The notes beneath the pieces are model-generated. The model had not been told where the DNA came from, did not search any database, and was given only the letters and a program-made list of their open reading frames with translations. Source: a virus (lineage: Duplodnaviria > Caudoviricetes). Taken from it: DNA of 64,000 nucleotides. Below, in pieces: positions 5,015-29,030 of this stretch. The position numbers were made by a program, and so were the translations under genes. The DNA lies in the IMG/VR virus record IMGVR_UViG_3300031519_000013, positions 20,032 to 84,031 of that record. One strand, written 5' to 3'. Each line of letters opens with the position of its first letter. Positions within the stretch are counted from its first letter, which is position 1.

Positions 5015-5292
5015 CTGATGAAGAGCTGAGAGCACAGATTGAACTGTTGATTCGTGATGAAATTCAAGAGGTCATCAACTCCTATGTTGAAGAACAAAAT
5101 AAAAGTTCTCCTGAGGGTGAACTTGGTTTCATCACTCCTGACGAACAGAAGGAGATGACAGTGAAGATTAAGAATGTAGAGATCGATAAACTCATGAAGG
5201 AGTATAAGCAGATTAAGAAGGAAGAGAAGTCAAATATATCTGAGATTAAGAAACTGGGTCTCGTAGACAAATTTGGCAATCCACTTGACTAA
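5011..5292 (+). CDS. Hypothetical protein
   Basis: 93-aa ORF, ATGA overlap. Confidence 0.75.
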   Translation: MTDEELRAQIELLIRDEIQEVINSYVEEQNKSSPEGELGFITPDEQKEMTVKIKNVEIDKLMKEYKQIKKEEKSNISEIKKLGLVDKFGNPLD

Positions 5293-5313
5293 ATAAGAAA
5301 TGAGGTCTATAAT
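5285..5313 (+). promoter_or_regulatory. Consensus sigma70 promoter for the riboswitch transcript
   Basis: TTGACT 5285-5290, 17 bp, TATAAT 5308-5313; predicted +1 near A5320; late-type CTAAATA at 5289-5295. Confidence 0.85.
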
Positions 5314-5319
5314 AGACCT

Positions 5320-5546
5320 ATCGTTCATCCGAGAGATCGGACGCAAGTAAGTCGCGGAACGGAGTCGTTCATCCCATGATTGAATTTCTTCTATATTCAT
5401 CACTCAGTTGTTCTGATGCCGATAGCATTATGCTACGGATAAAGAGAAACGAAAATCTTAGCAATAAAGTTATGATTGAGTTAGTAGAAACCGTAAAGGA
5501 ATCTACACCTGAGTGCTATTGGGACGCACACGATTGAAGGAACGGG
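5320..5546 (+). ncRNA. Glutamine riboswitch class I (glnA motif)-like RNA, split/nested form
   Basis: AUCGUUCA-[UCCGA gaga UCGGA]-CGCAAGUAA-GUCG (5320-5354) ... CGAU-UGAA-GGAACG (5531-5544); matches the recalled class I layout P1-P2-GnAAGUAA-P3-UGAA-P1'; upstream of a DUF4278-like gene. Confidence 0.75.
5376..5537 (+). CDS. 53-aa protein enclosed by the aptamer halves (not in ORF track)
   Basis: MIEFLLYSSLSCSDADSIMLRIKRNENLSNKVMIELVETVKESTPECYWDAHD*; GGAG at 5361-5364. Confidence 0.7.
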   Translation: MIEFLLYSSLSCSDADSIMLRIKRNENLSNKVMIELVETVKESTPECYWDAHD

Positions 5547-5608
5547 AAAACACGGATCCTGCGAAAGCAGAGAAGGTTAATTTTCACCCAACTTTCAGGA
5601 GTAAATTC

Positions 5609-5752
5609 ATGACTACTATTACTTACAGAGGTCAGCAGTACGATAAAGAGGCGTACAAAGCCAGTGTGTTGGAGCAAGCAACGCAACAACGCAACCACAA
5701 TCTAATGTATCGTGGTATTAAGATCGAACGTAAGTTCGCATCTAAGAGCTGA
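5609..5752 (+). CDS. DUF4278-like small protein (IF17/GifB-related)
   Basis: AGGAG 5597-5601; MTTITYRGQQY...LMYRGIK with two YRG motifs. Confidence 0.7.
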   Translation: MTTITYRGQQYDKEAYKASVLEQATQQRNHNLMYRGIKIERKFASKS

Positions 5753-5759
5753 TTGTTAC

Positions 5760-5786
5760 GGGAGGTTTCATAACCTCCCTTTTTTT
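5760..5786 (+). terminator. Intrinsic terminator closing the riboswitch unit
   Basis: GGGAGGTT-tcat-AACCTCCC then T7. Confidence 0.9.
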
Positions 5787-5896
5787 GTAAATTATTACGG
5801 AAACTTCATTAAGTTAGCATACGCTGACTAAATATTAATAGAATTGGAGAGTTAATGAACTAAAATCATTATTACCGTTCTATATGGAGAATTATT

Positions 5897-28727: not shown

Positions 28728-28993
28728 AAAAAGTTAAGATTACTCCCGAAACTTATCAAAAGATGGAAGATGAGTTCCGAGAAGAAGGACTTGCTTTTAC
28801 TATTACCATTCCTACACAGGAAACGATTGATAAGTGGCAAAATGCTACTCCTATCCCTCAACCAGTAAGACATAACGTTGATATGGTTGCTGATATGTGG
28901 GCAGAGCACAATAGGATAGAGGAAGAACGTAAATTACAACTTGAACTTAATTTATGCCCGTGTAGTCCAATTGGCAGTAGACACGAAACTTAA
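28724..28993 (+). CDS. Hypothetical protein overlapping the tRNA 5' half
   Basis: GTG start; its TAA stop is the tRNA anticodon. Confidence 0.65.
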   Translation: MKKVKITPETYQKMEDEFREEGLAFTITIPTQETIDKWQNATPIPQPVRHNVDMVADMWAEHNRIEEERKLQLELNLCPCSPIGSRHET

Positions 28994-29030
28994 AATTTCG
29001 ACAGTATCGGTTCGAGTCCGATCACGGGTA
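28956..29030 (+). tRNA. trnL: tRNA-Leu(UAA), short variable arm, no encoded CCA
   Basis: Acceptor GCCCGTG/CACGGGT, D stem GTC/GAC, anticodon arm CGAAA-ctTAAaa-TTTCG, T arm ATCGG-TTCGAGT-CCGAT, A73. Confidence 0.9.

What the first reader, a model, noticed from the sequence alone, without database searches (positions are those of the whole stretch)
5376..5537. Dual-coded 53-aa ORF whose last codons and stop are the aptamer 3' strand
Seen: the terminal codons W-D-A-H-D-stop (TGG GAC GCA CAC GAT TGA) are the same bases as the stem strand UGGGA, the CGCA junction, the P3' strand CGAU and the UGAA element. The start ATG abuts the complementary UCCC. A ribosome on this ORF would have to melt the long-range aptamer. 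Inference: translation and ligand binding compete, as in leader-peptide attenuation combined with a riboswitch. The peptide has two Cys and no family I recognise.
Basis: partly seen in the sequence, partly recalled or inferred. Interest (0 to 1): 0.72.

Follow-up and report, generated by a model that had tools for sequence, protein, structure and literature searches.

The report
Gene tail doubles as glutamine sensor
In this marine cyanophage a real 53-codon gene lies inside a hairpin of a glutamine-sensing RNA switch, and its last five codons and stop codon are also core bases of the sensor, so translating the gene and folding the sensor cannot happen together; I found no paper that describes this.

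Summary
ORF 5376-5537 ends TGG GAC GCA CAC GAT TGA, and these bases are also sensor RNA.

**The gene is real.** It matches phrog_504 (syn9 gp197) over its full length. dN/dS is about 0.23, two cysteines are invariant, and AlphaFold predicts a confident two-helix hairpin.

**The tail is set by the RNA.** Synonymous variation collapses in the last four degenerate codons: GCA in 57 of 57 sequences, GAC in 56 of 57. Relatives with no ORF keep nearly the same bases. The stem that closes over the ORF covaries across about 150-180 nt, and the encoded residue changes with it (W, K, G or E; D to G). Free-standing homologues carry a different tail.

**The sensor is nested, not tandem.** It is one type-I glutamine aptamer (P1 5322-5326 with 5540-5544). 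Its P3 arm holds an inner copy of the core, and the P2 loop of that copy holds the ORF. A DUF4278 gene follows.

**Mechanism (inferred).** The folded, glutamine-bound sensor hides the ORF's start, and ribosomes on the ORF unfold the sensor. The leader-peptide analogy fails. No expression data could be obtained.

This scan has met the same layout in many other cyanophage genomes.

The parts
5285..5313 (+). sigma-70-type promoter (TTGACT, 17 nt, TATAAT); the transcript should start at about 5320, at the first base of the sensor
   Evidence: 11 of 12 consensus matches. A -10-like box lies 4-18 nt before the first CGUUCA in 156 of 161 loci.
5322..5326 (+). outer P1, 5' strand (CGUUC)
   Evidence: Pairs with 5540-5544 in 61 of 61 sequences. 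RNAalifold predicts it unprompted.
5328..5341 (+). outer P2 hairpin (short here; it holds a 66-codon ORF in syn9 and others)
   Evidence: Three pairs show compensatory changes. ORF-sized in 92 of 233 loci.
5342..5349 (+). CGCA pocket strand plus AGUA, the 5' half of loop E, of the outer core
   Evidence: Invariant in 61 sequences. Matches the Rfam RF01739 consensus.
5350..5354 (+). P3, 5' strand (AGUCG)
   Evidence: Pairs with 5531-5535 in 61 of 61 sequences. G-C is most common, G.U occurs here, and A-U occurs in L173.
5357..5370 (+). inner helix P1* (GAACG, loop GAGU, CGUUC). The first loop base, G5362, is invariant and is a candidate second linchpin.
   Evidence: A G-C to C-G double change occurs in 9 of 61 sequences, always both sides together. 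The first loop base is G in 67 of 67 flank types.
5372..5376 (+). inner P2*, 5' strand (UCCCA). Its last base is the A of the start codon.
   Evidence: Covaries with 5520-5524 across the ORF; 15 strand combinations were seen.
5376..5537 (+). 53-codon gene (phrog_504, syn9 gp197 family) lying in the loop of P2*
5520..5524 (+). P2*, 3' strand (UGGGA) = the Trp49 codon plus the first two bases of Asp50
   Evidence: The residue changes among W, K, G and E as the stem covaries.
5525..5530 (+). CGCA pocket strand of the inner core plus 2 nt = the last base of Asp50, Ala51 and the start of His52
   Evidence: GCA in 57 of 57 sequences. The only freely variable base is the first base of codon 52.
5531..5535 (+). 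P3, 3' strand (CGAUU) = the end of His52, Asp53 and the U of the stop codon
5536..5545 (+). loop-E GAAG (its first two bases are the GA of the stop codon), the outer P1 3' strand GAACG, and linchpin G5545
   Evidence: Invariant AAGGAACGG in 61 sequences. The Rfam alignment of ORF-less L085 agrees.
5546..5608 (+). expression platform with the Shine-Dalgarno AGGAG at 5597-5601
   Evidence: Its folding logic was not resolved.
5609..5752 (+). 47-codon DUF4278 (IF17-like, two YRG motifs) gene, the presumed regulated output
   Evidence: Pfam PF14105 at 26.1 bits, above its cut-off of 25.3. phrog_5049. A YRG-motif ORF follows the sensor in 154 of 161 loci.
5760..5787 (+). intrinsic terminator that closes the roughly 470-nt transcription unit
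   Evidence: An 8-bp stem followed by a T run.

Best explanation
Shown: ORF 5376-5537 is a genuine small-protein gene lying in a hairpin loop of a glutamine riboswitch. The riboswitch is one canonical type-I aptamer: P1, P2, loop E, P3, and a linchpin G. Its P3 arm contains a second, circularly permuted copy of the aptamer core, made of helix P1*, hairpin P2* and a second CGCA strand. The gene fills the loop of P2*. Its AUG starts in the 5' strand of P2*. Its last five codons and stop codon are, base for base, the P2* 3' strand, the inner CGCA strand, the P3 3' strand and the start of loop E. The outer P1 3' strand follows 2 nt after the stop. The RNA fixes these bases, and the protein simply carries whatever tail they encode.

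Inferred: the sensor can fold only when no ribosome sits on either end of the ORF. Once folded and locked by glutamine, it buries the ORF's initiation region, which has no conserved Shine-Dalgarno. I therefore propose a reciprocal toggle on one early transcript. At low glutamine the RNA is open, the nested gene is translated, and the downstream DUF4278 gene is off. At high glutamine the sensor is closed, the nested gene is off, and DUF4278 is on, as in the known ON-type glutamine switches. My odds are about 0.85 for the anatomy and the RNA-dictated tail, and about 0.35 for the toggle.
For: Coding:
- Column entropy by codon position is 0.52 / 0.29 / 0.79, and C12 and C47 are invariant with mixed TGT/TGC.
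- Median dN/dS is 0.23 for codons 2-48.
- phrog_504 matches full length at E 2.8e-27.
- The gene is found in 311 phage records and 70 clusters at 50% identity.
- AlphaFold gives pLDDT 83.7 with helices at 12-24 and 30-43; the tail from residue 48 has low confidence.

RNA-dictated tail:
- Synonymous entropy is 0.106 against 0.67 for interior codons.
- ORF-less loci L085-L089 keep nearly the same tail bases, differing from the window at two variable positions.
- The P2* strands covary across the ORF, and the encoded residue changes with them.
- In L202 and L228 a U-A to C-G change turns Asp50 into Gly.
- Free-standing homologues L177-L179 lack the flanks and end differently.

Nested fold:
- The Rfam glutamine model scores the whole ORF-less element of L085 as one aptamer at 46.4 bits, above the gathering score of 35.
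- The nested structure is paired in 96.5% of cells, with P1 and P3 at 100%; the tandem structure breaks a P1 pair in 9 of 61 sequences in each aptamer.
- RNAalifold predicts the nested fold unprompted.
- P3 shows G-C, G.U and A-U.
- AGUA and GAAG flank P3 only in the nested reading.
- Unconstrained folding gives -60.2 kcal/mol, nested -58.7 and tandem -56.6.

Unit and precedent:
- Promoter, DUF4278 gene and terminator are in place.
- Glutamine switches are translational ON switches ahead of DUF4278 genes (PMC6212724).
- The binding pocket is the P1 helix, the CGC strand and the linchpin G (PMC6698751).
Against: - There are no expression, ribosome-profiling or probing data.
- P2* has only 5 base pairs and closes a loop of about 145 nt.
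- ORF-bearing and ORF-less forms coexist, and a homing-endonuclease gene sits in another loop in Sf-CH5. The loops may simply tolerate cargo.
- The G-C to C-G double change may be a single inherited event.
- In the P-HM1 clade, P3 has two mismatches.
- The expression platform was not solved, so ON versus OFF is taken from homologues.
- A terminating ribosome could instead open the downstream ribosome-binding site, which would be positive coupling.
Confidence: 0.6

Rival explanations
1. Passenger gene. The hairpin loops of the sensor are permissive sites in a hyperplastic early region, and small genes have been dropped into them. The dual coding arises only because the ORF reads on into the aptamer until the first in-frame stop. 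Any clash with ribosomes is tolerated rather than used.
For: - Four kinds of cargo occupy three loops: phrog_504 and the P-HM1-type ORF in P2*, phrog_6471 in P2, and a homing endonuclease in the P1* loop.
- Forms with and without ORFs coexist.
- Free-standing homologues exist.
- The tail is poorly ordered in the model.
- Of the three reading frames through the 3' core, the one in use is the only one that holds a stop (sequence).
Against: - The start codon sits at the first loop base, or inside the stem, in every ORF family, with no spacer.
- The ORF-bearing form is by far the commonest: the exact-pattern scan found 5 ORF-less loci, against 224 relatives of the ORF.
- A translated ORF cannot avoid unfolding the sensor, so some functional consequence is unavoidable.
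Confidence: 0.3
2. Positive translational coupling. A ribosome that terminates at 5535-5537 covers the P1 3' strand and the first platform bases. It melts the structure that hides the DUF4278 ribosome-binding site and so switches the downstream gene on.
For: In most loci the DUF4278 start lies only 30-39 nt after GGAACGG. In many loci an anti-Shine-Dalgarno-like stretch begins right after the linchpin G.
Against: In the window the gap is 63 nt and holds its own hairpins. ORF-less forms keep the same platforms. The mechanism is untested.
Confidence: 0.15
3. Two ordinary tandem aptamers: the first at 5320-5365, and the second split by the ORF. Each pairs its own CGUUC with its own GAACG. This is how tandem glnA RNAs have been described.
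For: - The Rfam model aligns 5320-5365 alone at 27.6 bits.
- The nascent 121-nt RNA folds with the first CGUUC paired to the first GAACG.
- The literature speaks of tandem glnA RNAs (PMC2864571).
- The repeated GCCGACU in the P-HM1 clade suggests an origin by duplication.
Against: - The score of 27.6 is below the gathering score of 35.
- Each unit alone lacks half of loop E and lacks P3.
- In 9 of 61 sequences both P1 helices would carry a mismatch, while the nested helices stay perfect.
- The nested alignment scores 46.4 bits.
- RNAalifold chooses the nested fold.
Confidence: 0.12
4. Leader-peptide attenuation combined with a riboswitch. On this view the peptide itself is unimportant and ribosome stalling on it decides the fate of the transcript.
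For: The ORF is short and overlaps a regulatory RNA.
Against: The protein is under purifying selection and has a confident fold and free-standing homologues. It has no conserved run of glutamine or other regulatory codons. No terminator lies between the ORF and the next gene.
Confidence: 0.04

Closest known systems
Type-I glutamine riboswitch (glnA RNA, Rfam RF01739), e.g. the Synechocystis gifB/IF17 leader (PMC6212724; pocket described in PMC6698751)
   Same: It has the CGUUC/GAACG P1 helix, a P2 hairpin, a CG(G/C)A pocket strand, the AGUA/GAA loop E flanking P3, and a linchpin G. It lies directly upstream of a DUF4278 gene. The motif is already known from cyanophage genomes: S-CREM1 has a 99-nt hit at 44 bits (PMC9964418).
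   Different: P3 carries a second core copy and a whole translated gene, so P1 spans 223 nt. The Rfam model cannot score the window's copy. Sensor core bases are also codons.
Tandem riboswitches (glycine; tandem glnA RNAs noted in PMC2864571)
   Same: There are two copies of the conserved core on one leader, and possibly two ligand sites.
   Different: The copies are nested and share one helix (P3). The inner copy is circularly permuted, with its P1 closed by a 3-4 nt loop. They are not side by side.
Protein genes in peripheral loops of group I introns (from my own knowledge: homing-endonuclease ORFs such as I-TevI in the T4 td intron)
   Same: A structured RNA tolerates an ORF looped out of a peripheral hairpin. 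The ORF may run into core sequence. Translation and RNA folding interfere with each other.
   Different: The RNA here is a ligand sensor, not a ribozyme. The cargo is a 53-residue helical protein, not a nuclease, except in Sf-CH5. Nothing is spliced.
Leader-peptide attenuation (trp, his operons)
   Same: Ribosome position on a short upstream ORF determines which RNA structure can form.
   Different: There are no regulatory codons and no terminator or antiterminator pair. The product is a conserved protein with free-standing homologues.

Membership tests
Type-I glutamine riboswitch (RF01739) | P1 helix CGUUC/GAACG closing a three-way junction | tested here: met
   5322-5326 pairs with 5540-5544 in 61 of 61 sequences. 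RNAalifold predicts it.
Type-I glutamine riboswitch (RF01739) | P2 hairpin supported by covariation | tested here: met
   Three pairs show compensatory changes.
Type-I glutamine riboswitch (RF01739) | Pocket strand CG(G/C)A after P2, and a linchpin G after GGAACG | tested here: met
   5342-5345 and G5545 are invariant in 61 sequences. The roles are taken from PMC6698751.
Type-I glutamine riboswitch (RF01739) | Loop E (AGUA opposite GAA) flanking P3 | tested here: met
   AGUA at 5346-5349 and GAAG at 5536-5539 flank P3 (5350-5354 with 5531-5535). In many relatives the first G is A, because the stop codon is TAA.
Type-I glutamine riboswitch (RF01739) | Score at or above Rfam's gathering score (35 bits) | tested here: inconclusive
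   Window: only 5320-5365 aligns, at 27.6 bits; the insert is too long for the model. The ORF-less relative L085 scores 46.4 bits over the whole nested element.
Type-I glutamine riboswitch (RF01739) | Binds L-glutamine and changes expression | not testable with these tools
   Needs in-line probing or ITC, and reporter assays.
Type-I glutamine riboswitch (RF01739) | Leader of a DUF4278 (IF17-like) gene | tested here: met
   PF14105 at 26.1 bits, above its cut-off of 25.3. A YRG-motif ORF follows in 154 of 161 loci.
Type-II glutamine riboswitch (RF01704) | H-type pseudoknot with GGAACGG in the loop of a 3' hairpin; score of 33 bits or more | tested here: not met
   20.3 bits in the window and 28.1 bits in L085. 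No 3' hairpin encloses GGAACGG.
Leader-peptide attenuator | Short dispensable peptide with a run of codons for the sensed amino acid | tested here: not met
   The window's ORF has no Gln codon. The protein is conserved and folded.
Leader-peptide attenuator | Alternative terminator and antiterminator hairpins after the leader ORF | tested here: not met
   The only + strand terminator-like site found is at 5760-5779, after the DUF4278 gene.
phrog_504 / T4-like gene cluster 430 (syn9 gp197) | Full-length match to the family profile | tested here: met
   E 2.8e-27, residues 1-53 matched to profile positions 1-53. Annotated as GC 430 or 'similar to gp197' in S-SSM5, S-SM1, S-SSM7 and S-SKS1.

The most novel reading that the evidence does not exclude
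The element is a double glutamine sensor. Two binding cores, one of them a circular permutation closed by a 3-4 nt loop, are fused through a shared P3 helix. Each core carries a gene in its P2 loop. Ribosome traffic on the nested genes would then decide when either pocket can form, so one RNA integrates glutamine level with its own translation status and switches reciprocally between the nested genes and the IF17-like output.
Probability: 0.3. Interest if true: 0.85.

Novelty: new variant of a known kind. Interest (0 to 1): 0.7.

Why it matters
Riboswitch aptamers are treated as compact non-coding domains, and annotation pipelines find them on that assumption. Here the sensor spans 223 nt, and about 1 kb in Sf-CH5. 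It encloses one to three genes, and it escapes the Rfam model. Hundreds of cyanophage glutamine switches are therefore probably unannotated, and their small genes are labelled only as hypothetical.

The overlap gives a clean natural case in which RNA structure dictates protein sequence: the encoded residue follows the stem. It is also a testable case of a ligand sensor whose folding depends on ribosome occupancy.

The output gene is related to IF17, a protein that inactivates glutamine synthetase. The element therefore bears on how cyanophages read and reset host nitrogen status early in infection.

Tried and rejected
- **Rfam at gathering thresholds:** only a tRNA was found in the window.
- **The look-up of encoding contigs, for the context of family members with odd C-termini:** I replaced it with a viral-contig scan.
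- **BLASTP of syn9 gp196 against gp197:** no similarity, so I do not claim that the two nested ORF families are paralogues.
- **Relatives of the S-SSM7 ORF:** only one locus was found.
- **Independence of the G-C to C-G double change:** the tree needs 5 changes by parsimony, but well-supported branches force only 1, so I count it as at least one event.
- **Literature:** searches for cyanophage glutamine riboswitches, ORFs within aptamers, tandem glnA and Syn9 transcriptomes found no description of a nested gene. Ames and Breaker 2011 is not held. The window's motifs do not occur in the stored part of Weinberg's alignments.
- **Expression platform (5546-5608):** inspected but not solved.
- **ORF as non-coding RNA only:** rejected on the codon evidence.

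Full report
**What is there.** The window comes from a T4-like cyanomyovirus. Its neighbours include glutaredoxin, ThyX, PhoH and 2OG-oxygenase-like genes, and the best DNA matches are syn9, S-SKS1, S-SSM5 and S-SM1. ORF 5376-5537 (+, 53 codons) ends TGG GAC GCA CAC GAT TGA, exactly as reported, and UCCC lies directly before its ATG.

Upstream is a near-consensus sigma-70 promoter at 5285-5313. Downstream is a 47-codon DUF4278 gene at 5609-5752, followed by an intrinsic terminator at 5760-5779. The unit is therefore a roughly 470-nt early transcript that carries two small genes.

**The ORF is a real gene.** It matches phrog_504 over its whole length at E 2.8e-27. It is the homologue of syn9 gp197, which is T4-like gene cluster 430. 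tblastn finds it in 311 phage records, and an exhaustive HMMER search finds 70 clusters at 50% identity.

In 57 distinct 53-codon copies the evidence for coding is consistent:
- Column entropy by codon position is 0.52 / 0.29 / 0.79.
- Cys12 and Cys47 are invariant, with both TGT and TGC in use.
- Median dN/dS for codons 2-48 is 0.23.
- Length variants differ by whole codons, from 52 to 60 codons.

AlphaFold2, run on a 49-sequence alignment, gives a helical hairpin with helices at 12-24 and 30-43 and a mean pLDDT of 83.7. Residues 1-10 and 48-53 have low confidence.

**The tail is dictated by RNA.** Five independent observations support this.
1. Synonymous variation collapses in the last four degenerate codons: GAC in 56 of 57, GCA in 57 of 57, xAC in 57 of 57, and GAC in 54 with GAT in 3. 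Mean synonymous entropy is 0.106 bit against 0.67 for interior codons. Only 9 of 100,000 random sets of four interior codons are as low. In codons 49-53, nonsynonymous differences outnumber synonymous ones by 3.5 to 1, against 1.5 to 1 in the interior. The one freely variable base is a codon first position.
2. Five loci lack the ORF and have a 9-nt hairpin loop in its place. They keep nearly the same bases after the stem, differing from the window only at two positions that also vary among ORF-bearing relatives.
3. The stem that closes over the ORF (UCCCA with UGGGA here) covaries across about 150-180 nt. Fifteen strand combinations occur in 67 distinct flank types, and several are compensatory. 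The residue encoded by the 3' strand changes among Trp, Lys, Gly and Glu.
4. In L202 and L228 the first pair of that stem changes from U-A to C-G. This turns Asp50 into Gly.
5. Free-standing homologues with no aptamer flanks (L177-L179) share the protein up to the second Cys and then end in a quite different tail.

**Which RNA it is.** At first sight there are two tandem glutamine aptamers, the second one split by the ORF. The evidence favours a nested fold instead.
- On the ORF-less locus L085 the Rfam glutamine model aligns the whole 90-nt element as one aptamer at 46.4 bits, above the gathering score of 35. In that alignment P1 is the first CGUUC paired with the last GAACG, and a 41-nt insert sits in P3. 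In the window the first unit alone reaches only 27.6 bits.
- Counted on 61 distinct sequences, the nested structure has P1 and P3 paired in every sequence. The tandem structure leaves a mismatch in each P1 in 9 sequences. Those 9 carry a G-to-C change in the first GAACG together with a C-to-G change in the second CGUUC, never one without the other. The helix between these two strands is therefore preserved. This may be a single inherited event.
- P3 (AGUCG with CGAYU) shows G-C in most sequences, G.U in the window and A-U in L173.
- The two halves of loop E, AGUA and GAAG, flank a helix only in the nested reading.
- RNAalifold predicts the nested fold without guidance.
- ViennaRNA puts the nested fold at -58.7 kcal/mol and the tandem fold at -56.6. 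The unconstrained optimum (-60.2) has the nested P1, P1* and P2*.

The inner part repeats the bases that form the glutamine pocket in the solved structures (PMC6698751): CGUUC, a CGCA strand and GGAACGG. The first loop base after the inner GAACG is G in all 67 flank types. The inner junction may therefore be a second, circularly permuted binding core. This is inference.

In these terms the ORF's last 18 bases are:
- the P2* 3' strand (5520-5524);
- the inner pocket strand plus two bases (5525-5530);
- the P3 3' strand (5531-5535);
- the first two bases of loop E (5536-5537).

The outer P1 3' strand begins 2 nt after the stop codon.

**Spread and variants.** Among 233 loci with a recognisable element, 132 have the window's layout. 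A further 87 also carry a second ORF (syn9 gp196, phrog_6471) in the outer P2 loop. Four have only that ORF, and one has none. This sample is biased, because most loci were fetched with the inner ORF as bait.

In the gp196-type ORFs the start codon pairs within the P2 stem. The stop codon lies in the P2 3' strand, or in P-HM1 in the AAGUAAG of loop E. Prochlorococcus-phage relatives carry a divergent 58-60-codon ORF in P2*. In Sf-CH5 a homing-endonuclease gene sits in the loop of the inner helix, and the outer P1 strands are about 1 kb apart.

A -10-like box precedes the element in 156 of 161 loci, and a YRG-motif ORF follows it in 154 of 161.

**How it probably works.** Known glutamine riboswitches are translational ON switches ahead of DUF4278 (IF17-like) genes (PMC6212724), and I assume the same output here.

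The part specific to this finding follows from geometry. A ribosome initiating at 5376 covers the inner helix and P2*. A ribosome at the stop codon covers P3 3', loop E and P1 3'. Translation and sensor folding are therefore mutually exclusive.

Conversely, the folded sensor pairs the 10 nt before the AUG and the A of the AUG. No Shine-Dalgarno is conserved: the loop is GAG(C/U) in this clade but GGUU, GAUU or GAAU in the P-HM1 clade. Initiation should therefore depend on an open RNA.

I propose a reciprocal toggle in which the nested gene is on at low glutamine and DUF4278 is on at high glutamine. The rivals are a passenger gene with no regulatory use, positive coupling through the terminating ribosome, and plain tandem aptamers. 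None of these could be tested, because no expression data were obtainable.

**Novelty.** glnA RNAs, their tandem occurrence and their presence in cyanophages are published (PMC2864571, PMC9964418, PMC9004378). In the searchable library I found no description of a gene nested in the aptamer, or of codons that double as aptamer core.

This scan's own notes record the same nested layout in many other cyanophage genomes, with follow-up reports that reach the same anatomy. I consulted them only after my own analysis, and they agree with it.

Noticed in passing
L176:340-1352 (Synechococcus phage Sf-CH5): A 191-residue homing-endonuclease gene (GIY-YIG-like by eye) is inserted in the loop of the inner helix P1*, with a duplicated CGTT. 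With the gp196-type and gp197-type ORFs, this makes three genes inside one aptamer whose outer P1 strands are about 1 kb apart.
   Followed up: partly
L001:390-625 (syn9), L042, L086-L089, L092 (P-HM1): A second ORF family (syn9 gp196, phrog_6471, 66 codons) fills the outer P2 loop. Its AUG pairs within the stem. Its stop codon lies in the P2 3' strand, or in P-HM1 in the AAGUAAG of loop E. This is a second case of codons doubling as aptamer core.
   Followed up: partly
L177-L179: Free-standing homologues of the 53-residue protein have no aptamer flanks and a different C-terminal tail after the second Cys. More distant homologues of gp196 also occur outside this context, for example next to psbA in the podovirus P-GSP1 (L093).
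   Followed up: partly
window 5379-5387 and 5463-5480: Codons 2-4 and 30-34 of the ORF also have unusually low synonymous variation. A GAUUG at the start and another at codons 33-35 are both complementary to a CAAUC at codons 29-31 in most relatives. This may be an alternative pairing inside the ORF.
   Followed up: no
window 5363-5367: In the window and a few relatives, the loop of the inner helix plus the next bases spell a second AGUCG. It could also pair with the P3 3' strand at 5531-5535.
   Followed up: no
proteins P0011, P0012, P0021 and others: Many public gene calls for this family are 75-81 residues long. They start at an upstream alternative start codon and read across the 5' half of the sensor. 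These are probably mis-called starts.
   Followed up: no
PMC2864571, supplementary glnA alignment; L092-L174: One published glnA RNA has only the 8-nt linker CGCCGACU between AAGUA and GAAG, in place of a P3 hairpin. The P-HM1 clade repeats GCCGACU in both units. This hints that the nested element arose by tandem duplication of such a P3-less aptamer.
   Followed up: no
window 28956-29030: A tRNA gene is the only Rfam match in the window at gathering threshold (56.1 bits).
   Followed up: no
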